Assembly (NCBI RefSeq): GCF_009914755.1
Contig: NC_060925.1
From: the human T2T-CHM13v2.0 reference genome, Homo sapiens
Reading direction: 5' to 3' (one strand)
Length of the DNA stretch: 64,000 bases
Below the pieces are notes generated by a model. It was not told the DNA's origin and searched no databases. It saw nothing but the letters and a program-made list of their open reading frames with translations. A program made the position numbers and the translations under genes. How positions within the stretch are numbered: the first letter of the stretch is position 1; every line of letters starts with the position of its first letter. Positions 45,950-58,070 of this stretch are shown here, piece after piece.

Positions 45950-47240
45950 ATTTTTAAATTTTTCATAATATAGAAATATTGAAATAATCATAGTATTAGA
46001 CCATGTACCTATCACCAAGATTCTGCAATCAACCTTTTACTATTCTTGCTTTGCCACAAATGTATCCCTCTACTTATCTCTCTATCAATCCACCTTATTT
46101 TTTAATGAATTTCAAAGTAAATGCAGGCATCAATACAGTTCACTTCTAAACACTTCAACATGAGTACAATTTACTAGGGATCCATGTTTTTTATGATTTC
46201 TCTTTTTTTCTTCTGTCATCAAACATACATATTGTGTTTTTTTTTCTTTTTTAATTATTATTATACTTTAAGTTTTAGGGTACATGTGCATAATGTGCAG
46301 GTTAGTTACATATGTATACATGTGCCATGCTGGTGTGCCGCACCCATTAACTCGTCATTTAGCATTAGGTATATCTCCTAATGCTATCCCTCCCCCCTCC
46401 CCCCACCCCACAACAGTCCCCAGAGTGTGATGTTCCCCTTCCTGTGTCCATGTGTTCTCATTGTTCAATTCCCATCTATGAGTGAGAACATGCGGTGTTT
46501 GGTTTTTTGTCCTTGCGATAGTTTACTGAGAATGATGATTGTAAATGCACAGATTTACATATACCATTCAGTGAGTTTGACAAATACACACACTCAAGTA
46601 TGATCCAGGCTGTTTTACTCCTCTCCTTTGGGAACTCCAGTGACACTTTGTGAGAATTTTTCATATTGTCCCACAGGTTCCCTAAGGCTCTGTCATTTTG
46701 TTGAATCTTTTTTCTCTCTGTTCTTCAGTTTGGATAATCTATTAATCTACCTTCAAATTTACATTCTTCTATCATCTCCAATCTGCTGTTAATCTCACCA
46801 AGGGATATATATATTTTTTTAATTTCAGTTTTGTGTTTTAGCTCTAGAATTTATTTTTGTTCTTTGTTATAGTTTATGTTACTCTGTCAAATTTTCCTGG
46901 TCTTTTATTTATAATAAAGATATTTTCCTTTGCTATATTGTGCATAGTTATAATAGTGACTTTAAAATCCTTGTCTGCTAATTTTAACATCTGGATCTGT
47001 AGTCTCTGTTGATTGCCTTTTCTTTCAAATATGGTTCACATTTTTCTGTTTCTTTGTACCCATGTGTATCCATCGTTTAGCTTCCACTTATAAGTAAGAA
47101 CATGTGGTATCTGATTTTCTGTTTGAGTTATTTCACTTAGGATAATGGCCTCCAGCTCCAACTGTGTTGCTGCAAAAAACCATTTTATTCTTTTCTATGG
47201 CTGAGTAGTATTCCATGACATATATGTATCACATTTTCTT
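45950..47240 (-). mobile_element. Cluster of old L1 fragments (L1MC/ME 3' ends, L1M ORF1-like piece ~46655-47055, L1PB/MA 3' UTR ~47058-47240)
   Basis: catgtacctatcaccaagattc; gtaaatgcacagattt...gagtttgacaaat; ttagcttccacttataagtaagaacatgtggtat. Confidence 0.65.
46236..46540 (-). mobile_element. 5'-truncated L1PA3-like element (~300 bp)
   Basis: Reverse complement carries aatgctaaatgacgagttaatgg and gtaactaacc (L1PA2/3 type, GAG rather than ACA); short TSD attgt (46231-46235 / 46538-46542). Confidence 0.88.
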
Positions 47241-50200
47241 TTTTTTTTCTTCAACTTTTAAGTTCTGGGGTACATGTGCAGGATGTGCAGGTTTGTTACA
47301 CAGGTAAACATGTGCCATGTGGTTTGCTGCACAAATAAACCCATTACCTAGGTATTAAGCCCAGCATCCATTAGCTATTCTTGCTGATGTTCTCCCTCCC
47401 CCTGCACCCCCACCAACAGGCCCCAGTGTGTGTTGTTCACCACCATGTGTCCATGTGTTCTCATCATTCAGCTCCCACTTATAAGTAAGAACATTCAGTG
47501 TTTCATTTTCTGTTCCTGTGTTAGTTTGCTAAGGATAGCAGCTTCCAGCTCCATCCATGTCCCTGCAAAGAACATGATTTTATTCCTTCTGATGGCTGCA
47601 TCGTATCCCATGGTGTATGTACTACATTTTCTTTATCCAATCTATCATTGATGGGCATTTGGGTTGACTCCATGTCTTTGCTATTGTGAATAGTGCTGCA
47701 ATGAACATATGCATGCATGTGTCTTTATAGTAGAATGATTTATATTCCTTTGGGTATATACCCAGTAATGAGATTGCTGGGTCAAACAGTATTGTTGCCT
47801 CTAGGTCTTTGAGGAATTGCCACACTGTCTTCCACAATGATTAACCTAATTTACACTCCCACCAACAGTGTAAAAGCATTCCTTTTTCTCCACAACCTCA
47901 CCAGCATCTGTTGTTTCTTGACTTTTTAATAATCGCCATTCTGACTGGTGTGAGATGGTATCTCATTGCATTTTTGATTTGCATTTATCTAATAATCAGT
48001 GATGTTGAGCTTTTTTCATGCATTTCTTGGCCACATGAATTTATTCTTTTGAGAATTGTCTGTTCATGTCCTTTGCCCACTTTTTAATGGGGTTGTTCAT
48101 TTGTTTCTTGTAAATTTGTTTAAGTTCCTTGTAGACTCTGGATATCAGACCTTTGTCAGATAGATAGATTGCAAAAATTTTCTCCCATTCTGTAGGTGGT
48201 CTGTTCACTCTGATGATAGTTTCTTTTGCTGTGCAGAAGCTCTTTTGTTTAATTAGATCTCGTTTGTCAATTTTTGCTTTTGTTGCAATTGCTTTGGGCA
48301 TTTTTGTCATGCAGTCTTTGCCCATGCCTATGTCCTGAATGGAATTGCCTAGATTTTCTTCTGGGATTTTATACTTTTGGGTTTTAGATATAAGTCTTTA
48401 ATCTGTCTTTAGTTATGTTGCAGGAAGTCAGGGACCCTGAACGGAGGGACCGGCTGGAGCCGCGGCAGAGGAAAATAAATTGTGAAGATTTCATTTTAAA
48501 ATGGACATATATCAGTTCCCAAATAATACTTTTATAATTTCTTACACCTGTCTTTATTTCAATCTCTGAACATAAATTGTGAAGATTTCATGGACATTTA
48601 CCAGTTCCCAAATAATACTTTCATAATTTCTTATGCCTGTCTTTACTTCAATCTCTGAACATAAATTGTGAAGATTTCATTTTAATATGGACATTTATCA
48701 ATTCCAAAATTAATACTTTTATAAGTTCTTATGCCTGTCTTTACTTTAATCTCTTATTCCTGTTATCTTCATAAACTGAGAATGTACATCACCTCAGGAC
48801 CACTCTTGTGTTAAATGTACAAATTGATTGTAAAACATGTGTATTTGAACAATATGAAATCAGTGCACCTTGAAAAAGAACAGAATAACAGTGCTTTTCA
48901 GGGAACAAGGGAAGACAACCATAAGGTCTGACTGCCTGTGGGGTGAGGCAGAATAGAGCCATGTTTTTCTTCTTGCAGAAAGCGTATAAATGATGTGCAA
49001 GTAGGGAAGATATTGCTACATTCTTTTCCTAGCAAGGAATATTAATAATTAAGACCCTGGGAAAGGAATGCATTCCTCAGGGGAGGTCTATAAATAGCTG
49101 CTCTGGGAGTGTCTGTCTTATGCGGTTGAGATAAGGACTGAAATACGCCCTAGTCTTCTGCAGTACCCTCAGGCTTATTAGGGTGGGGAAAATACCCCAC
49201 CCTAGTAAATTTGAGGTCAGACCAGCTCTCTACTCTCAAACCCTGTTTTCTGTTGTTTAAGTTGTTTATCAAGATGATATGTGCACAGCTGAACATAGAC
49301 CCTTATCAGCAGTTCTGGATTTGCCCTTGTCCTGTTTCCTCAGAAGCATGTGATCTTTGTTCTCCTTTTTGCCCTTTGAAGCATGTGATCTTGTGACCTA
49401 CTCCTTGTTCTTGCACCCCCTCCCCTTTTGAAATCCTTAATAAAACTTGCTGGCTTTAAGGTCAGGTGGGCATCATGGTCCTACTGATATGTGATGTTAC
49501 CCCTGGAGGCCCAGCTGTAAAATTCCTCTCTTTGTATTCTTTCTCTTTATTTCTCAGCTGGCCAACACTTAAGGAAAATAGAACCTATGATGAAATATTG
49601 GGGGTGGGTTCCCCCGATAGAGTTAATCTTTGTATAAAATGTAAGGAAGGGGTCTAGTTTTAATTTTCTGTATGTGGCTAGCCAGCTCTCCTAGCACCAT
49701 TTATTAAATAGGGAATCCTTTCCTCATCGCTTGTTTTTGTCAGATTTGTCAAAGATCATATGGTTGTAGGTGTGCAGTCTTATTTCTGAGTTCTCTATTC
49801 TGTTCCATTGGTCTATGTGTCTGTTTTTGTACCAGCACCTTCTGTTTTGGTTACTGAAGCCTTATAGTACAGTTTGAAGTCAGGTGGATGATGCCTTCAG
49901 CTTTGTTCTTTTTGCTTAGGATTTTCTTGGCTATTCAGGCTTTTTTTGGTTTCAGATGAATTTTAAAATAGTTTTCTCTAATTCTGTGAAGGACATCAAT
50001 GGCAGTTTAATGGGAATATTATTGAATCTATTAATTACTTTGGGCAGTGTGGCCATTTTCATGATATTGATTCTTCCTATCCATGAGCATGGAATGTTTT
50101 TCCATTTGTTTGTGTCCTCTCTGATTTCCTTGAACAGTGGTTTGTAGTTCTCCTTGAAGAGGTTCTTCACTTCCCTTGTTAGTTGTATTCCTAGGCATTT

Positions 50201-51703: not shown

Positions 51704-52159
51704 CATGATGGATGAATAACATACTCAGACACTGATATTCAGTGAAAGAGCAGCTAGGGAGCCTGGCTGTGCACAGAAAGATTTGTGGCAGCCATGTGCC
51801 CTGACTAGCTGGCCCTGTGGGCATTTATTCAGCACAGATTTAATGACAAAGGCTTTGAGTCAACACACTTGTGGGTAATTAATCTGGTCGCCCTCCCCCA
51901 GAGAGAGCAGTCATGCACCTGTGGAAGATCAAAGGTCAGTCTTAGGACCACATAAGTAAACAAGCTATTTAGATAAACTCCCCACATTCCCTTGTTATTT
52001 GCTCTTCTGCTATCAGCTCAAGGTAAAGAGGATTAGGCTGCCTTCAGCCATATCTTTTACTGAAGCTATGCAAACCTCCCGGCCTTCTAAGAAGGTTTGT
52101 GTCTATTTCCTATAACTTCATAATTTTTCCCACCACCTTGACTTGACTGATCCCCTACA
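51704..52159 (-). repeat. 3' LTR (LTR22-type), missing ~30 bp of its U5 end
   Basis: Direct repeat of 56395-56876; begins TGTAGGGGATCAG at 52159, preceded by PPT AGAAAAGAGGGAGA (52173-52160). Confidence 0.9.
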
Positions 52160-52750
52160 TCTCCCTCTTTTCTGTATTTTTTTTTTTTTTTTTTGCATCA
52201 GGCTTGGTTGTTTGAAGAGTACAGTTGTGTGCAGCAACAGGTCTGTTAGGCGAGGTGGTCATTGCTCTTATTCGGGCTTTGCATTCTAGAATTAGCAAAT
52301 AACATAAGACAAACATGAGTGTAATTAGCAACATTCTTTTCCAACCAAGGAGTGACCCCCAGGAGTCGGGGTCTATCCAGGAGAGATGTTTTTGCATATC
52401 TTTTCACATGGTTGTTACTGAGGAACCCCACTGGGGGTATATTAATTCCTCTTAGCCAAGCAGTCATGTTGTTAGAAGCTGGGAAGGGGGTGTTCGCCTA
52501 AGTAACTGGGCTGAGAAAAGATGGATTTAGAAGATGGGCTTAATAGAGTGTTGTAGGTACAGGTAGCAGGCAAAGTGAGAGAATAAAAATGTTAATAAAG
52601 TATAGAAAGGAACAAATTATCTGCAGTGAATGGTGTTTGTGTCTGGAGCAGGATTCGCTCAGTCTGAGTTGTCTTCTTCAGGATTCTGTCTGGGGCTTGT
52701 GCCACCCAAGGAAGCTGCATCATCTGGAGCTCTAGGTCCTGCAGGGACAT
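52160..52750 (-). pseudogene. env: env remnant: leader/signal region joined to TM C-terminus; most of SU/TM deleted
   Basis: Hydrophobic anchor WKRMLLITLMFVLCYLLIL (ORF 52155-52397); only ~600 bp between IN end and PPT. Confidence 0.7.
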
Positions 52751-55320
52751 TTTCTTTATTTTTGGTACTGGGTTGGGTCCTAGCCACACTATGGTAAAGT
52801 TTGATGTGTCATGCTGGAATCCAAAGAGGATGTGAGGGGGTGTGAACACAAGCATATCCTCTTTCCCACATTAGCAATTCTTTTGGATCACACCATGCAT
52901 GACTGTTTACATCTTTCCATAAAACTGAGGGTTTTATGTCTTGAGAGGTTTTAGCAAAGTGCTTTTCTATAGATGATTGAAAGTTATCATCTAAATTTAA
53001 AAAGTTAAGGGTAAATAAGGCTTGTGCTAATAGTGTTGCAGGGTCCTTACTCATACTCCCCATTTTTTGTTTTTTGAGCATATTTTTAAGGGTGGAGTGG
53101 GTACATTCTACTATGGCCTGCCTTTGGGGGTTATACGGGATGCCTGTGGAATGTTGGACATTCCACATGTGGCAAAATTGTTGAAATTGTGAGCTGGCAT
53201 AAGCTGGACTATTATTAGCTTTAATTTTTGTGGGCCACCCCATAAATGCAAAAGTGAAAAGAATATGTTTAATGACATATGGGTGGACTCTCCAGGAAGG
53301 GCATATACACTAATTAAGTGAGAATTGGTATCAACGGATACATGTACGTATCTAAGTTTTCCAAATTCAGGGATGTGTGTAACATCTGTTTGCCATAACT
53401 GATTAGGTTCTAGTCCTCTAGGGCTAACATCTGTAGAAGGAGGGGATGTGCCTGTGAGCTGGCAATTTGGGCATTGCAGGATAATTTATTTAGCTAGTCT
53501 CTGGTAAGTGGAAATTGTTCAGATAAGTTTCTCCAATTTTGGTGGAAGAATTGATGTGATTGGGTGGCTTGGTCAAGCAGTGATGTCATAACCTGAAGAT
53601 CTGCTTGATCATTGCCATAAGCTAATGGGCCAGACAGTGAGCTGAGGGGTTGAATATGTGTGATAAAAATAGGATGTGAACATTGATCTAGCAATTGCTG
53701 AAGCTGGAGAAAAAGAGCACACAGGGTGGGCTCCAGAGTGGACTTAATTAGTGCTGTTTCAAGGTTTTGGAATAAATAAACAGAGTAAGCAGAGTCACTC
53801 ACAATATTGATGCACTGAGTGGAAAAAGTCTCCAAAGCTAATATTAATTAAGGGTCCACCTTAGCTCTTTGAGTGCTAGTAAACCCAGATCTAGTGAGGG
53901 AATTATGTGGTCTCCACCAGACAGCTGCTTTTCCATGTTTACCTGAACCATTAGTAAACAGCATTAAAGCATTAGGTATGGGGTAGTGAACTATTTTTGT
54001 AGGTAAAATCACAGGAGTACGAGACAAGAACTGAAGGAGTTTATCAGCAGGAAGGGTATTCTCTATTTGGCCTGTGTAATCAGAGATGTCTATTTGCAAG
54101 TCCATCAATAAGGGCAATACTGCTTTGAATTGCTTCTTACTTAAAGGAATCCTGATGATATCAGGATCATAACCTAGCAACTGATTGCATTGTCTGTGGC
54201 CTGAATAGATTACTTTACTGATTAACTGGATGTAGGGAGAAAGTGTTTTAGTTCCAGTATGTGAGCCAAAAAACCCATTTTAGAAAGCGCAGTCCTGGAG
54301 TCATCTGTCCTATTAACCCTGTAGGAGAGTGTTTAGTGGGAAAAATTAATAATTGAATTGAATACCATGGATCAATGCAATCTAGTTGCCTTTGAGAGAT
54401 AGCTTGTTCTGTTTTTTCAATTTCCCTTTTTGCTGCAGGGGTTAAATACCTGGGAGAATCCAGGGCTGTATTGCCCTTTAAGATAGAAAACAGGTTTTGC
54501 AACTTATCTGTAGACATGTCCAAGGTGGGGTGAAGCCAGTTAATATCGCCTAGCAATTTCTGATAATCATTTAAGGTGTATAAGTTGCTAGTATTTAATT
54601 TAAACTTTTGAGGTCTTACTGACCAGGAAGTTAGTATGTATCCAAGAAATTGCCAAGGAGAAGACATCTGTACTTTTTCAGGTGCTATGATTAAACATCT
54701 TAACTGTGTATTTTTTACGACAGAGGTATATAGACTTAAAAACATTTGCTCTGTTGGGGCTGGTAGTAAAATATCATCTATAAAATGAATAACCTTGCAA
54801 TCAGGAAATTCTTTTCTACTGGGGAGCAAAGCTTGATTTACTTGATACCTGCACATGGTAGGACTATTCAGCGTTCCTTGAGGAAGCACTTGCTAATGAA
54901 ATTGGCAAGCTGGCGTTTCATTATTGATAGCTGGTATTGTAAACGCAAATTTTTCTCTGTCCTGCTTTGCAAGTGAAATAGTATAAAAGCAGTCTTTTAA
55001 ATTAATAACAATTATAGGCCAATCTTGAGAAATTGCTGTGGAGGAGGGAAGGCCCTGTTGAAGGGGCCCCATAGGTTGTAAATTAGCATTAATAGCATGT
55101 AAGTCATGCAAAAGTCTCCATATACCAGACTTTTTGGGAATGATGAAAATGGGCAAATTCCAAGGGCTGTTTGATGATTCTATATGACCTGTTTTTAATT
55201 GCTCCTCAACTAATTATTGGCCTCCTTGTAATTTCTCCCCCTTTAAAGGTTACTGTTCTACTTAAATTGGATTTTGAGAGAGCCACGTTAGGGGTAGGAG
55301 ATACATAACAGTGGCCATTA
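52750..55320 (-). pseudogene. pol: pol (RT-RNase H-integrase), disrupted by stops and frameshifts
   Basis: [34 protein letters not shown] (YMDD equivalent), QKLLGDINW, NIVSDSAY, GIPYNPQRQAIVE, LLMWERGYACV. Confidence 0.95.
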
Positions 55321-55329
55321 TTAGAAAGA

Positions 55330-55656
55330 GGTCTTTTAAATTCTTAAGTTTTACTTATATTTTAGCAGAGAATTATAATCTGGGATGTTGCTTGTATACA
55401 AGGAACACATGAATTTTGCTGTGGGATGCCCACAGAGCCAAAGAGCAGTGGCATGGATCCCGGGGCAGTGGCCACATTGCATTTTCCTAGGCACCGCTTT
55501 TTGTCTGTGCCACTTTTTGTCTGTGCTGCTCCCTTCCCCCACCGCTGTGTGGCTGCTGCCGGCCGGGAGGACCCTGTCGGCCCGGGGCACCACAAGCTTC
55601 CCGGCTGCTGAGCCTTTACTTCCACCCATTGCCCACTTAGCCATGCAGCTCCAGCC
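55330..55656 (-). other. Non-retroviral-looking GC-rich insert replacing most of gag and pro; candidate transduced cellular 5' UTR (NCK2-like, from memory)
   Basis: Abrupt switch from A-rich gag to GC/CpG-island-like sequence, then an AT-richer block, then the pol start; no CA/NC/dUTPase/PR motifs. Source gene recalled, not searched. Confidence 0.6.
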
Positions 55657-56240
55657 TCTAATGCCTTTTCTTATCTTTTTATAAACGTTAAAAGAAATGT
55701 GTTTTTATACCTGATTGCCTTGTTGATCTTGCATTACTGGACAGGCTAAGAGCTCCCCTTCTAATGTTGCTTGCCTAAGATGGGGTCCCATAGCTGTAGC
55801 ATATCCCTTGTCTTTTTTCCTATCAATTAGAGGAGGAGGCTCAGCCAAGACCTCCATTTCCTCTTTGTTATTTTGGCCCCAGTGATAGTGGGGCTGAGGG
55901 ACAAAGAGGTGGTAAGGTAAGTGACAGTTCCTCCTCCTTCCCCATTTTAGGCTCTTCTGTGTATAATGAGACCACAGCCACCCTGACTAAAGCCCGTAGC
56001 ATTAAAGCTGTTACTGGGACCTGTTACCCTTGCACATGGTGTTGTTTAAGATTTCTCCCCACTTGTTCCCAGAGCTCTACATCTAGTGTACCTTTTTCCA
56101 GGAACCATGGGTTATGGAATACAACAGTTCGCATTACGTCCCTTAATTGAGCCTGAGAAACCGAGACTCCACTAGCTTTTAAGAAGCTCTTTCAATACTT
56201 TTATATACTGTTTCTGTTGAGCTGATAACTGTTGTCCCAT
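55657..56240 (-). pseudogene. gag: gag 5' remnant (matrix to start of capsid)
   Basis: ATG GGA CAA CAG (MGQQLSAQQ, myristoylation Gly) at 56240; PWFLEKGTLDVELWEQVG betaretroviral MA motif; PVMQDQQG capsid start. Confidence 0.85.
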
Positions 56241-56374
56241 GGTGAAACCCTAGCCTGAACAATGCCCCCACAACTTGGAAATCCCAAGCGGGCACCAATG
56301 ACTTACTGACTCACTGACTGTGCCGTCCTTTTCACCCCTATTTTTGAGGGTTCCATTATGATCCTTTGTAGTTT

Positions 56375-56392
56375 TCCTCACATGGGGCACCA
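56375..56392 (-). promoter_or_regulatory. Primer binding site complementary to elongator tRNA-Met
   Basis: TGGTGCCCCATGTGAGGA, 2 nt after the LTR; 17/18 match to the complement of the tRNA-Met 3' end (TGGTGCCCCGTGTGAGGA), the mismatch being a CpG decay. Confidence 0.9.
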
Positions 56393-56394
56393 CC

Positions 56395-56876
56395 TGCCAG
56401 GGTCTGACCTGCAGACGTAGGCTGCACGATGGAAGAATAACATACTCAGACACTGATATTCAGTGAAAGAGCGGCTGGGGGCTGGGCTGTACACAGAAAA
56501 AAGTTGTAGCAGCCGTGTGCCCCAACTAGCTGGCCCTGTGGGCATTTGTTCAGCACAGATTTGATGACAAAGACTTTGAGTCAACACACCTGTGGATAAT
56601 TAATCTGGTCGCCCTCCCCCGGAGAGAGCAGTCATGCACCCGTGGAAGATCAAAGGTCAGTCTTAGAACCATATAAGTAAACAAGCTATTTAGGTAAGCT
56701 CCCCCACATTCCTTTGTTATTTGCTCTTCTGCTATCAACTCAAGATAAAGAGGATTAGGCTGCCTTCAGCCAAATCTTTTACTGAAGCTATGCAAACCTC
56801 CTGGCCTTCCAAGAAGGTTTGTGTCTATTTCTTATAACTTTATAATTTTTCCCACCACCTTGACTGATCCCCTACA
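56395..56876 (-). repeat. 5' LTR (LTR22-type), complete
   Basis: TG...CA termini on the minus strand (TGTAGGGG ... CCCTGGCA); 482 bp; followed by the PBS. Confidence 0.92.
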
Positions 56877-57037
56877 CAGAAACAGGAGGACAGATGTGAA
56901 AACTGGAAGAAATTACAATTTCTCCAAGACATGGAGAGATTAGGTATGAGGGAGTGATGGAAAGGGGAGAATATAAGTGCTTTCTAGGTTTGGGGTTTGA
57001 GCAGTGGAATAAATGGTGATAAAATGTGTTGATGAAA
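56877..57037 (-). mobile_element. L2 middle piece (target of the provirus and the L1PA6)
   Basis: ttctaggtttggggtttgagcagtggaataaatggtg L2 motif; continues after the L1 at 63134. Confidence 0.6.
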
Positions 57038-58070
57038 GAGAATCTGTTCCAAGATGGCTGAATAGAAACAGCTCCAGTCTGCAGCTCCCAGCGTGATCGA
57101 TGCAGAGGATGGGTGATTTCTGCATTTCCAACTGAGGTACCTGGTTCATCTCATTGGGACTGGTTGGACAGTGAGTGGAGCCCACAGAGGGTGAGCCAAA
57201 GCAGAGTGGGGCATCGCCTCACCTGGGAAGCACAAGGGGTCAGGGGATTTTCCTTTCCTGGCGAAGGGAAGCCGTGACAGACTGTACCTGGAAAATCGGT
57301 ATACTCTGGCTCAAATACTGTGCTTTTCCCACAGTCTTAGCAACGAGCAGACTAGGAGATTCTCTCCCATGCCAGACTTGGCAAGTCCCACACCCACAGA
57401 GTCTTGCTCACTGCTAGCACAGCAGTCTGAGATCAATCTACGAGGGTGCAGCCCTGCGAGGGGCGTCCACCATTGCTGAGGCTTGAGTAGGTAAACAAAG
57501 TGGCTGGGAAGCTTGAACTGGGTGGAACCCACCGCAGCTCAGCAAGGCCTACTGCCTCTATAGACTCCACCTCTGTGGGCAGGGCATAGCTGAATGAAAG
57601 GCAGCAGACAACTTCTGCAGACTTAAATGTCCCTGTCTGACAGCTCTGAAGAGAGCAGTGGTTCTCCCAGCATGGTTTGACCTCTGATAATGGACAGACT
57701 GCCTCCTCAAGTGGGTCCCTGACTCCCATGTAGCCTAACTGGGAGACACCTCTCAGTAGGAGCCAAAAGACACCTCATACAGGCAGGTGCCCCTCTGGGA
57801 TGAAGCTTCCAGAGGAAGGATCAGGCAGCAATATTTGCTGTTCTGTAATATTGCTGTTCTGCAGCCTCTGCTGGTGATACCCAGGACAACAGGGTCTGGA
57901 GTGGACCTCCAGCAAACTCCAACAGACCTGCAGCTGAGGTTCCTGACTGTTAGAAGGAAAACTAACAAACAGAAAGGAATAGCATCAACACCAACAAAAA
58001 GGACATCCACACGAAAACCCCATCTGTAGGTCACCAACATCAAAGACCAAAGGTAGATAAAACCACAAAG

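What the first reader, a model, noticed from the sequence alone, without database searches (positions are those of the whole stretch)
55330..55656. HML-5 provirus appears to carry a transduced, spliced cellular mRNA 5' UTR (candidate NCK2) in place of gag-pro
Seen: on the proviral strand, gag stops early in capsid (...AAAGGCATTAGAG, ~55657). It is followed by ~240 bp of GC-rich sequence that looks like a decayed CpG island (GCCCCGGGCCGACAGGGTCCTCCCGGCCGGCAGC...). A sharp switch at ~55415 leads to ATTCATGTGTTCCTTGTATACAAGCAACATCCCAGATTATAATTCTCTGCT..., and then to the pol start. CA, NC, dUTPase and protease are absent. Inference: a GC-rich block fused to an AT-richer block is the pattern of a first exon spliced to a second exon, captured in sense orientation by RT template switching. 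From memory (not searched), the second block closely resembles the NCK2 5' UTR exon (atttcatgtgttctttgtatacaagcgacgtcccagattataattctctgctgagatttgag...), differing mainly by G-to-A changes. Established: many HML-5 proviruses lack gag/pro/env regions, and host mRNA capture by retroviruses is the oncogene-transduction mechanism but is rarely documented in HERVs. I do not know whether this insert has been described.
Basis: partly seen in the sequence, partly recalled or inferred. Interest (0 to 1): 0.85.

Follow-up and report, generated by a model that had tools for sequence, protein, structure and literature searches.

The report
Provirus carrying a captured NCK2 leader
An ancient retrovirus fossil on human chromosome 1 has had most of its capsid and protease genes replaced by a spliced piece of the untranslated leader of the human NCK2 gene, and about 40 copies of this hybrid are scattered through the genome, so a virus once picked up a host message and spread it.

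Summary
The observation and the interpretation both hold. On the minus strand, window 55657-55415 matches a CpG-island exon on chromosome 2 up to its last base before a GT donor. Window 55414-55335 matches the first ~81 nt of an exon 71,383 nt downstream, starting at the first base after its AG acceptor. The intron is absent, so the insert came from a spliced RNA. NCK2 coding exons lie 65-76 kb further downstream on the same strand.

The insert replaces capsid, nucleocapsid, dUTPase and protease. These are missing in the window and present between the same breakpoints in full-length relatives.

The same chimera occurs at 39 or more other places. The exon-exon junction is precise in 26 of the 29 copies examined, and host flanks are unrelated. 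This indicates one capture followed by spread as a helper-dependent lineage. Of 20 differences from NCK2 shared by the copies, 18 are G-to-A, an APOBEC3-like footprint.

This is a new member of a known kind (retroviral transduction, or LTR-mediated retroposition). I found no description in print, but the key HML-5 paper and the repeat libraries could not be read.

The parts
56425..56876 (-). 5' LTR (the part that aligns with the 3' LTR). It runs about 30 nt further, to just before the primer-binding-site-like TGGTGCCC at 56392-56385.
   Evidence: direct repeats 4721-4722 nt apart. (418 of 450 aligned bases identical; starts TGTAGGGG).
55658..56384 (-). gag remnant: leader, matrix (Gag_p10, about 56197-55979), and the first ~28 codons of capsid (55740-55657).
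   Evidence: PF02337, E 4.6e-15. (translation). (homology to other copies ends at query 745 = window 55656).
55415..55657 (-). Segment derived from NCK2 5' UTR exon 1 (chromosome-2 CpG island, locus L032 844-1070). The first two bases (AG) are shared with gag. It carries a 16-nt tandem duplication (55526-55495) that human NCK2 lacks.
   Evidence: window 55657-55418 matches L032 844-1067, E 1.5e-21..
55414..55415 (-). Exon 1-exon 2 splice junction with no intron. Chromosome 2 reads ...ccacggcgag|gtaagc and tttag|atttcatgtg; the window reads ...cccacagcaaaa ttcatgtg.
   Evidence: junction gap of 0-1 nt in 26 of 29 copies.
55335..55414 (-). Segment derived from the first ~81 nt of NCK2 5' UTR exon 2 (chromosome 2, locus L031 4755-4835). 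It is heavily G-to-A changed in its 3' third.
   Evidence: 89% identity, E 1.2e-12..
52800..55334 (-). pol remnant. It starts at the last codons of protease and the start of RT (agacctctttctaataatggcc), then runs through RT, thumb, RNase H, integrase core and the integrase C-terminal domain, with many stops and frameshifts.
   Evidence: RVT_1, RVT_thumb, RNase_H, rve, IN_DBD_C. (homology to other copies resumes at query 1067 = window 55334).
52160..52799 (-). Short remnant between integrase and the 3' LTR. env is essentially missing. It ends in an A-run and the polypurine tract aaaagagggaga.
   Evidence: sequence before the 3' LTR. (no env family found).
51704..52159 (-). 3' LTR, truncated by about 30 nt at its 3' end relative to the 5' LTR.

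Best explanation
While viral RNA was being copied into DNA, reverse transcriptase left the viral template at the protease/RT boundary. It continued on a co-packaged NCK2 mRNA from about base 81 of 5' UTR exon 2, across the exon 2/exon 1 splice junction, to near the 5' end of exon 1. It then returned to the viral RNA about 28 codons into capsid.

The result is a provirus with LTRs, primer-binding site, leader, matrix and pol, in which most of CA and all of NC, dUTPase and PR are replaced by about 310-430 nt of NCK2 leader. It cannot make capsid or protease, so it must have been packaged and copied with proteins from full-length relatives. In this way it reached at least 40 places in the genome.

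Before that spread, the insert acquired strand-specific G-to-A changes of the kind APOBEC3 editing leaves. These close all three reading frames in the exon-2 part.

Shown: the chimeric anatomy, the missing intron, sense orientation, the shared junctions, dispersal to unrelated sites, and the G-to-A bias. Inferred: template switching as the mechanism, co-packaging, trans-complementation, and APOBEC3 as the editor. The insert most likely has no function today and is a molecular fossil.
For: Anatomy:
- The exon-1 match ends at the donor and the exon-2 match starts at the acceptor, 71,383 nt apart on the same strand.
- The host exons have no other proviral homology around them. Upstream of exon 2 is an Alu followed by unique sequence.

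Gene identity:
- SH2 matches lie at C2:106343265 and C2:106354281 on the + strand.
- The open frame there matches NCK2 SH3/SH2 structures best: 1wx6 at E 7.9e-51, also 1u5s, 2fry, 4e6r and 2frw, ahead of NCK1.

Replacement of viral genes:
- Full-length loci L037 and L038 carry Gag_p24, Gag_p24_C, zf-CCHC, dUTPase and RVP between the same breakpoints. The window carries none of them.

Single capture, then spread:
- 36 further places appear, 2 more and 1 more.
- Among the 29 copies examined, exon 2 starts at +1 in 29 of 29. Exon 1 ends at L032 1069/1070 in 26 of 29. The 5' junction is at L032 844 in 18 of 29.
- Host flanks upstream of the 5' LTR show 0 cross-matches among the 6 loci where 100 nt or more was available.

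Junction microsimilarity:
- At the 5' junction, AG is shared. A block CGGAGCC(G/A)C is common to viral capsid RNA and NCK2 exon 1 a few bases inside the junction.
- At the 3' junction, NCK2 TGGAGA sits against viral TGCAGA.

Editing:
- 309 positions were scored in 27 copies. Of 20 differences shared by at least 70% of copies, 18 are G-to-A and 0 are C-to-T. The contexts are GA 10, GG 6, GC 1, GT 1.
- By my hand calculation, 18 of 18 falling on G rather than C has p of about 5e-5, given 131 G and 95 C positions.

Precedent for the mechanism: passages of Tan et al. 2016, PMC5131818.
Against: - Most copies carry an extra ~100 nt inside the exon-1 part that is absent from human NCK2 and from the window. 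I found no source for it. The founder was therefore either a three-template chimera, or NCK2 exon 1 has since lost sequence.
- The 3' crossover cannot be placed to the base. Copies are 1 nt longer than a clean switch within the 6-nt similarity would give.
- The G-to-A excess is concentrated in the insert. The flanking RT shows 4 G-to-A among 8 group-diagnostic columns, and the gag flank shows none. A single editing episode of the whole genome is therefore not demonstrated.
- Co-packaging versus read-through capture was not discriminated.
Confidence: 0.9

Rival explanations
1. Classical read-through transduction. A provirus integrated in or upstream of NCK2, a chimeric read-through transcript was spliced and packaged, and only the 3' junction arose by template switching.
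For: This is the textbook route for oncogene capture (Swain and Coffin 1992, as cited in the passages of PMC5131818 read). It gives the same spliced insert, sense orientation and helper dependence.
Against: The 5' junction joins mid-capsid to a point inside exon 1. No LTR, promoter-upstream or intronic NCK2 sequence is present. It is not a splice junction. Both junctions show short similarity, as expected for two template switches. No proviral remnant lies within the 0.8 kb upstream of exon 1 that I read.
Confidence: 0.07
2. Reverse direction. The NCK2 5' UTR exons were themselves derived from HML-5 sequence (exonised provirus fragments), so the block is native viral sequence.
For: HERV fragments are often exonised in 5' UTRs (general knowledge). 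The block is present in many HML-5 copies.
Against: The two halves lie 71 kb apart in NCK2, each bounded exactly by a canonical splice site. No other HML-5 homology flanks them. Full-length HML-5 copies have CA-NC-dUTPase-PR at that position and no similarity to the block. The exon-1 half is the CpG-rich original and the proviral copies are its decayed and edited versions.
Confidence: 0.01
3. Post-integration event. An L1-made NCK2 processed pseudogene fragment landed in one provirus and was then copied by segmental duplication or gene conversion among HML-5 loci.
For: L1 makes most human retrocopies (PMC5131818 passages). Three contig-24 places have identical scores and look like duplicated amplicons.
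Against: The insert has no poly(A) tail or target-site duplication and is 5' UTR only. L1 retrocopies are 3'-biased. It replaces about 1.6 kb rather than interrupting it. The 40 places lie on many chromosomes, at 63-77% (exon-1 part) and 71-93% (exon-2 part) identity to NCK2 and 68-89% to the window. Flanks are unrelated.
Confidence: 0.02

Closest known systems
FAM8A1 transduction by a HERV-K provirus (Jamain et al. 2001, known to me only through the passages of PMC5131818 read)
   Same: A human endogenous betaretrovirus-like element carries an intronless host gene segment between its LTRs, with microsimilarity at the fusion points.
   Different: Here only non-coding 5' UTR (exon 1 plus part of exon 2) was taken, from NCK2, by a different HERV-K-like group. 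The chimera reached at least 40 genomic places.
LTR-mediated retroposition by double template switch (Tan et al. 2016, PMC5131818; abstract and passages read)
   Same: An internal part of the retroelement ORFs is replaced, not interrupted. The mRNA copy is partial, there is short similarity at both switch points, and the chimera can go through further cycles as a non-autonomous element.
   Different: That survey reports three human cases. Its supplementary tables do not contain the word NCK2, but they do not contain FAM8A1 either, so the look-up is uninformative. This case is old, multi-copy and 5' UTR only, which retrocopy pipelines built on coding sequence would tend to miss (inference).
Acute transforming retroviruses (v-onc capture)
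   Same: Spliced host sequence in sense orientation replaces viral genes, and the genome is replication-defective and helper-dependent.
   Different: No NCK2 coding sequence is present, so there is no oncogene. The element is fixed in the germ line and is an inert fossil.
SVA-F1 lineage carrying MAST2 exon 1 (Damert 2009 and Hancks 2009, seen only as reference-list entries of PMC5753468; content recalled)
   Same: A CpG-island first exon of a host gene, acquired through RNA, became part of a retroelement subfamily that then amplified.
   Different: SVA is a non-LTR element mobilised by L1. There the acquisition was by splicing at the element's 5' end, not by internal replacement of viral genes.
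Non-autonomous ERV lineages such as ETn, mobilised by MusD (mentioned in PMC5131818 methods passage; details recalled)
   Same: LTR element whose coding interior is replaced by non-viral sequence and which spreads using a related autonomous element's proteins.
   Different: The source of the ETn interior is not a defined spliced host mRNA. Here the source gene and splice junction are identifiable to the base.

Membership tests
Retroviral transduction / LTR-mediated retroposition of a host mRNA | Host-derived segment lies between the two LTRs and replaces viral genes rather than interrupting them | tested here: met
   LTRs at 56876-56425 and 52159-51704. The insert takes the place of about 1.6 kb that encodes p24, zf-CCHC, dUTPase and RVP in full-length copies.
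Retroviral transduction / LTR-mediated retroposition of a host mRNA | Parental gene exists elsewhere with an intron that the insert lacks, with a precise exon-exon junction | tested here: met
   Exon 1 ends at C2:106206370 followed by GT. Exon 2 starts at C2:106277754 preceded by AG. The two abut in 26 of 29 copies with a gap of 0-1 nt.
Retroviral transduction / LTR-mediated retroposition of a host mRNA | Sense orientation relative to the viral transcript | tested here: met
   The proviral plus strand (window minus) matches the chromosome-2 + strand, which is the NCK2 coding strand.
Retroviral transduction / LTR-mediated retroposition of a host mRNA | Short sequence similarity between virus and mRNA at the switch points | tested here: inconclusive
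   At the 5' junction, 2 nt (AG) at the crossover plus an 8-9-nt common block a few bases inside. At the 3' junction, 5 of 6 bases are alike (TGGAGA vs TGCAGA), but copies are 1 nt longer than a clean switch. No simulation of chance expectation was run.
Retroviral transduction / LTR-mediated retroposition of a host mRNA | No L1 hallmarks (poly(A) tail, target-site duplication) bounding the insert | tested here: met
   The insert ends inside exon 2 and runs directly into RT sequence. No A-run is present at either junction.
NCK2 5' UTR (exons 1 and 2) | The two exons lie upstream of, and on the same strand as, NCK2 coding exons and are spliced to each other | tested here: met
   Coding exons are at C2:106342.5-106343.4 kb and 106354.3 kb on the + strand. 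Their best PDB matches are named NCK2. Canonical splice sites are present. The provirus itself records the exon 1-exon 2 splice.
NCK2 5' UTR (exons 1 and 2) | Annotated as NCK2 exons in RefSeq/Ensembl transcripts | not testable with these tools
No human annotation outside the window was available.
HERV-K(HML-5) / HERVK22 | Betaretrovirus-type gene set with dUTPase in pro and Gag_p10 matrix | tested here: met
   Gag_p10 in the window. dUTPase plus RVP in full-length relatives that are 83-87% identical to the window's gag and RT.
HERV-K(HML-5) / HERVK22 | Match to the Repbase/Dfam HERVK22 and LTR22 consensus; methionine-tRNA primer-binding site | not testable with these tools
   No repeat library is held. 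The primer-binding-site-like TGGTGCCC follows the 5' LTR, but its identity with tRNA-Met is recalled. [quoted passage not shown] That fits an assembly offset, which I only estimate.
APOBEC3-type hypermutation footprint | Plus-strand G-to-A excess without matching C-to-T, in GA/GG context, shared by descendants | tested here: met
   18 G-to-A against 0 C-to-T among 20 shared differences; 16 of the 18 are in GA or GG context. The enzyme itself is inferred.

The most novel reading that the evidence does not exclude
The NCK2 leader was not a neutral passenger. With the present-day NCK2 sequence, the captured span (225 + 81 = 306 nt) is a multiple of three. It is open in the phase that would continue the gag frame, and it would deliver ribosomes in the pro frame to the retained ...ACC CCT TTC TAA site just before pol. 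Two other independent gag-pro deletion variants of the family are also in-frame fusions ending at the same few codons. The original chimera may therefore have been selected as a minimal genome that still expressed Pol from a Gag'-X fusion. Alternatively, its CpG-island fragment may have helped transcription, which would explain why it makes up a large share of all copies of this family. A second, more modest reading: the copies preserve ~100 nt of an ancestral NCK2 5' UTR that the human gene has since lost.
Probability: 0.12. Interest if true: 0.8.

Novelty: new member of a known kind. Interest (0 to 1): 0.65.

Why it matters
Documented captures of host mRNA by human endogenous retroviruses are very few. 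Tan et al. 2016 call FAM8A1 the single described case and add two more. This case is resolved to the base, with source gene, splice junction and both switch points identified, and the chimera multiplied to about 40 places.

- It shows that helper-dependent transducing genomes could thrive in the primate germ line.
- It gives a dated fossil of NCK2 5' UTR splicing.
- It records strand-specific editing that occurred before the spread.
- There is a practical consequence. If repeat-library consensus sequences for this family were built from these copies, part of the NCK2 leader may be masked as retroviral, and reads from about 40 proviruses may cross-map to the NCK2 5' UTR. This is untested.

Tried and rejected
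- **200 kb fetch around the chromosome-2 hit.** I located exon 1 by search instead, located the coding exons with a Pfam SH2 scan, and fetched only small stretches.
- **Pfam on raw translations.** Rejected because of stop codons. Repeated with stops read as X.
- **Source of the ~100-nt extra segment in the longer copies.** There was no significant match in 11.7 kb of chromosome 2 around the two exons, in full-length gag-pro, or in the window provirus (best E 0.023, 26 nt). A genome search found only other copies of the chimera, 14 of 14 matches.
- **Which form is ancestral, long or short.** In a tree of the insert rooted on NCK2, the two forms are interspersed and deep support is weak. It suggests the window's short form is a secondary deletion but does not settle the question.
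- **Reading-frame conservation across the insert.** Lengths modulo 3 are 7, 6 and 7 among 20 usable copies, so there is no signal.
- **Whole-genome hypermutation.** The gag flank showed 0 group-diagnostic columns and the RT flank 8, of which 4 were G-to-A. Support outside the insert is weak.
- **Lavie et al. 2004 (the HML-5 family paper).** Not held by PMC id or DOI. I know its abstract only from recall.
- **Supplementary tables of PMC5131818.** They contain neither NCK2 nor FAM8A1, so the look-up is uninformative. The PDF supplements are unreadable here.
- **Literature searches for a prior description.** Searches gave nothing relevant.

Full report
**What is in the window.** The provirus lies on the minus strand between two LTRs at 56876-56425 and 52159-51704. 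The LTRs share 418 of 450 aligned bases. A primer-binding-site-like TGGTGCCC follows the 5' LTR, and a polypurine tract precedes the 3' LTR. With stop codons read as X, Pfam finds the following in proviral order: Gag_p10, RVT_1, RVT_thumb, RNase_H, rve and IN_DBD_C. It finds no Gag_p24, zinc knuckle, dUTPase, RVP or env family. gag runs into the first ~28 codons of capsid and stops being viral at 55657/55656. A GC-rich block follows. There is a sharp switch at 55415|55414, then an AT-richer block, and RT sequence resumes at 55334.

**Where the insert comes from.**
- A search of the window's own genome with 55330-55700 gave 48 matches. One was a 61-nt, 89% match on contig 2 at 106277756-106277816 (E 1.2e-12).
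- That chromosome-2 place is a textbook internal exon. A pyrimidine tract and AG come immediately before the first matching base, and a GTAAGT donor follows 184 nt later. An Alu and unique sequence lie upstream.
- The GC-rich block of a better-preserved sister copy (L004) hit contig 2 at 106206274-106206367, same strand, at 79% identity (E 3.7e-12).
- That stretch is a dense CpG island ending ...ccacggcgag|gtaagc.
- Direct alignment shows window 55657-55415 colinear with this exon from C2:106206144 to its last base, 106206370. Window 55414-55335 is colinear with the first ~81 nt of the downstream exon.
- The two exons are 71,383 nt apart and the provirus joins them base to base. Only a spliced RNA can give this arrangement.
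- Nothing else in the 5.2-kb provirus matches the 11.7 kb of chromosome 2 that I read.

**Which gene.** A Pfam SH2 scan of the genome found two partial SH2 matches on the + strand of contig 2, at 106343265 and 106354281. The 291-codon open frame at the first place matches solved structures named 'Cytoplasmic protein NCK2' best: 1wx6 at E 7.9e-51, also 1u5s, 2fry, 4e6r and 2frw, with NCK1 weaker. The two captured exons are therefore non-coding exons 136 and 65 kb upstream of NCK2 coding sequence, on its strand. I could not read a human annotation for chromosome 2, so the exon numbering is not tool-verified.

**What was replaced.** I searched with 1.7 kb spanning the insert; 380 first-look candidates were found, 40 were scored, and there were 56 matches at 37 places. 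In every relative lacking the insert, homology breaks at query 745 (window 55656) and resumes at query 1067 (window 55334). By hand, the 37 places sort as follows:

| Type | Places |
|---|---|
| Chimera with the NCK2 insert (includes the window) | 8 |
| 49-80 nt between the two breakpoints | 9 |
| About 185 nt between the breakpoints | 2 |
| 1577-1903 nt between the breakpoints | 3 |
| gag match only | 11 |
| RT match only | 4 |

I fetched all three long-gap places, four of the nine short-gap places and both 185-nt places. Two of the three long-gap places were scanned and encode Gag_p24, Gag_p24_C, zf-CCHC, dUTPase and RVP in that interval. The third carries an Alu. The window's insert has no similarity to any of these nine sequences; the best match is 13 nt at E 3.9. 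The insert therefore replaces most of CA and all of NC, dUTPase and PR.

**One capture, many copies.**
- Clustering the hits by hand gives 36 further places with the insert. This excludes the window, the NCK2 exon itself and one 44-nt gag-only hit. One search adds two more and adds one, so there are at least 40 places including the window.
- Seven are on contig 24. Three of those have identical scores and look like duplicated amplicons.
- I examined 29 copies: the window plus 28 fetched loci, dropping L028 because it overlaps L003.
- The exon-2 alignment starts at exon base +1 in 29 of 29.
- The exon-1 alignment ends at the last or next-to-last exon base in 26 of 29. The three exceptions end 4-8 nt short.
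- The two alignments abut with a gap of 0-1 nt in 26 of 29.
- The 5' junction is at the same NCK2 base in 18 of 29. Seven show a short upstream extension in GC-rich sequence, and four are truncated.
- For the six loci where at least 100 nt of host DNA upstream of the 5' LTR was in hand, no flank matches another. These are separate integrations.
- Copies are 63-77% identical to NCK2 in the exon-1 part and 71-93% in the exon-2 part. The amplification is therefore old.

**Junctions.**
- At the 5' side, viral ...cattagag meets NCK2 (tc)ag|gccggagcc; AG is common to both.
- Two to four bases further in, viral capsid RNA in relatives reads (c/t)ggagcc(g/a)c, and NCK2 reads cggagccgc.
- At the 3' side, NCK2 ...tttggaga lies against viral ...ctgcagacc, so five of six bases are alike. 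The copies are 1 nt longer than a clean switch would give, so the crossover is ambiguous by about 2 nt.
- This is the pattern described for microsimilarity-guided double template switching (passages of PMC5131818). I did not simulate the chance expectation.

**Editing footprint.** I projected 27 copies (the contig-24 triplet counted once) onto NCK2 and scored 309 positions.
- At 205 positions, at least 70% of copies keep the NCK2 base.
- At 20 positions, at least 70% share one other base. Of these, 18 are G-to-A, 1 is T-to-C, 1 is T-to-A and none is C-to-T.
- The G-to-A contexts are GA 10, GG 6, GC 1 and GT 1.
- CpG decay or biased gene conversion in the NCK2 lineage would be strand-symmetric. 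This pattern is not, and by my hand binomial p is about 5e-5.
- The changes predate the spread because the copies share them. They put stops in all three frames of the exon-2 part.
- The flanking viral sequence gives weaker signals: 4 G-to-A among 8 group-diagnostic columns in 140 nt of RT, and none in 143 nt of gag.

**Open points.**
- Most copies carry about 100 extra nucleotides (92-131 in 10 aligned copies) between two short repeat units inside the exon-1 part. The window, L002 and L005 lack it, and so does human NCK2.
- No source for this segment was found.
- A tree rooted on NCK2 intersperses long and short forms. The window's short form is probably a secondary deletion, and the founder probably carried the extra segment. 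It is either ancestral NCK2 leader since lost from the human gene, or a third template.
- Nearly all copies also share a 16-nt tandem duplication that human NCK2 lacks.

**How it most likely worked.**
- Shown: the chimeric structure, the spliced origin, sense orientation, the shared junctions, dispersal and the G-to-A bias.
- Inferred: an NCK2 mRNA was co-packaged with viral RNA. During minus-strand synthesis, reverse transcriptase switched to it at the end of pro and switched back in early capsid. The resulting genome kept its LTRs, primer-binding site, leader, matrix region and polypurine tract, so it could be packaged, copied and integrated using Gag and protease from full-length relatives.
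- Inferred: APOBEC3-type editing hit the insert before the successful master copy arose.
- I see no evidence that the insert does anything now. Insert length modulo 3 is uniform among copies: 7, 6 and 7 of 20.

**Comparison and novelty.** The mechanism is known from oncogene transduction, from the HERV-K/FAM8A1 case and from LTR-mediated retroposition. What appears new is the instance and its scale. The captured sequence is a non-coding NCK2 leader, and the lineage may account for roughly a third or more of this family's proviral copies. Vargiu et al. list 27 + 69 HML5 chains (PMC4724089 table passage), so the fraction is a rough estimate.

Searches of the held library found no description:
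- HML-5/HERVK22 terms;
- NCK2 with endogenous retrovirus or HERV;
- general capture terms.

The family's main paper (Lavie 2004) and the repeat libraries could not be read, so a prior note cannot be excluded.

**Verdict.** Interest 0.65.

Noticed in passing
Loci L033-L036 (C6:56909900, C12:43938480, C14:38607500, C4:161645820) and L040-L041 (C8:47028330, C9:112539400): Two other multi-copy gag-pro deletion variants of the same family exist. Their 3' breakpoints lie within about 14 nt of the NCK2-type breakpoint, just upstream of ...ACC CCT TTC TAA TAA. That site looks like the pro stop preceded by a CCCTTTC slippery heptamer (my inference). Of the six fetched copies, two gave no anchor in the script. 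Both readable short-gap copies (L034, L036) and one of the two 185-nt copies (L040) fuse the gag frame in phase to the last pro codons; L041 is off by 1 nt. Three independent events ending at the same few codons suggests selection or a switching hotspot.
   Followed up: partly
Most sister copies, e.g. L014 1780-1885, L004 1732-1833; absent from the window at about 55575: An extra segment of ~100 nt (GC 0.62-0.65) sits inside the exon-1-derived part, flanked by two short repeat units. It has no detectable source elsewhere in the genome.
   Followed up: partly
window 55495-55526 (minus strand): A 16-nt tandem duplication (gcacagacaaaaag(t/c)g twice) is present in the window and most copies but single in human NCK2 exon 1. 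Conversely, human NCK2 has a 20-nt tandem duplication (L032 about 914-953) that the copies show only once.
   Followed up: no
window 55353-55706 (minus strand): In the window copy the gag reading frame stays open for 118 codons, through the whole exon-1 part and into exon 2. The insert length (321 nt) keeps it in phase with the last pro codons (KTSF**). The present-day NCK2 span is also open in that phase. Across copies there is no frame conservation.
   Followed up: yes
window 52160-52800 and 51704-52159: env is essentially absent: only about 640 nt lie between the integrase C-terminal domain and the 3' LTR, including an 18-nt A-run just before the polypurine tract. The 3' LTR lacks about 30 nt at its end relative to the 5' LTR, so no target-site duplication could be read.
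   Followed up: partly
window 56129-57328: The RefSeq 'enhancer' feature listed by the hub covers the 5' LTR, leader and matrix region of this provirus, but not the NCK2-derived insert. The provirus lies in sense orientation inside an intron of LINC01350.
   Followed up: no
contig 24 (probably Y): 8724793, 20776633, 22056404, 22619042, 23780702, 24283559, 25903534: Seven places on contig 24 carry the chimera. Three have identical scores and alignments and are probably copies within duplicated amplicons rather than separate integrations.
   Followed up: no
window 48501-48678 and 46244-47536: An 89-nt tandem duplication (93% identical) lies at 48501-48678. Repeated segments about 1 kb apart lie at 46.2-47.5 kb and look like fragments of another repeat family. 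Both are unrelated to the finding.
   Followed up: no
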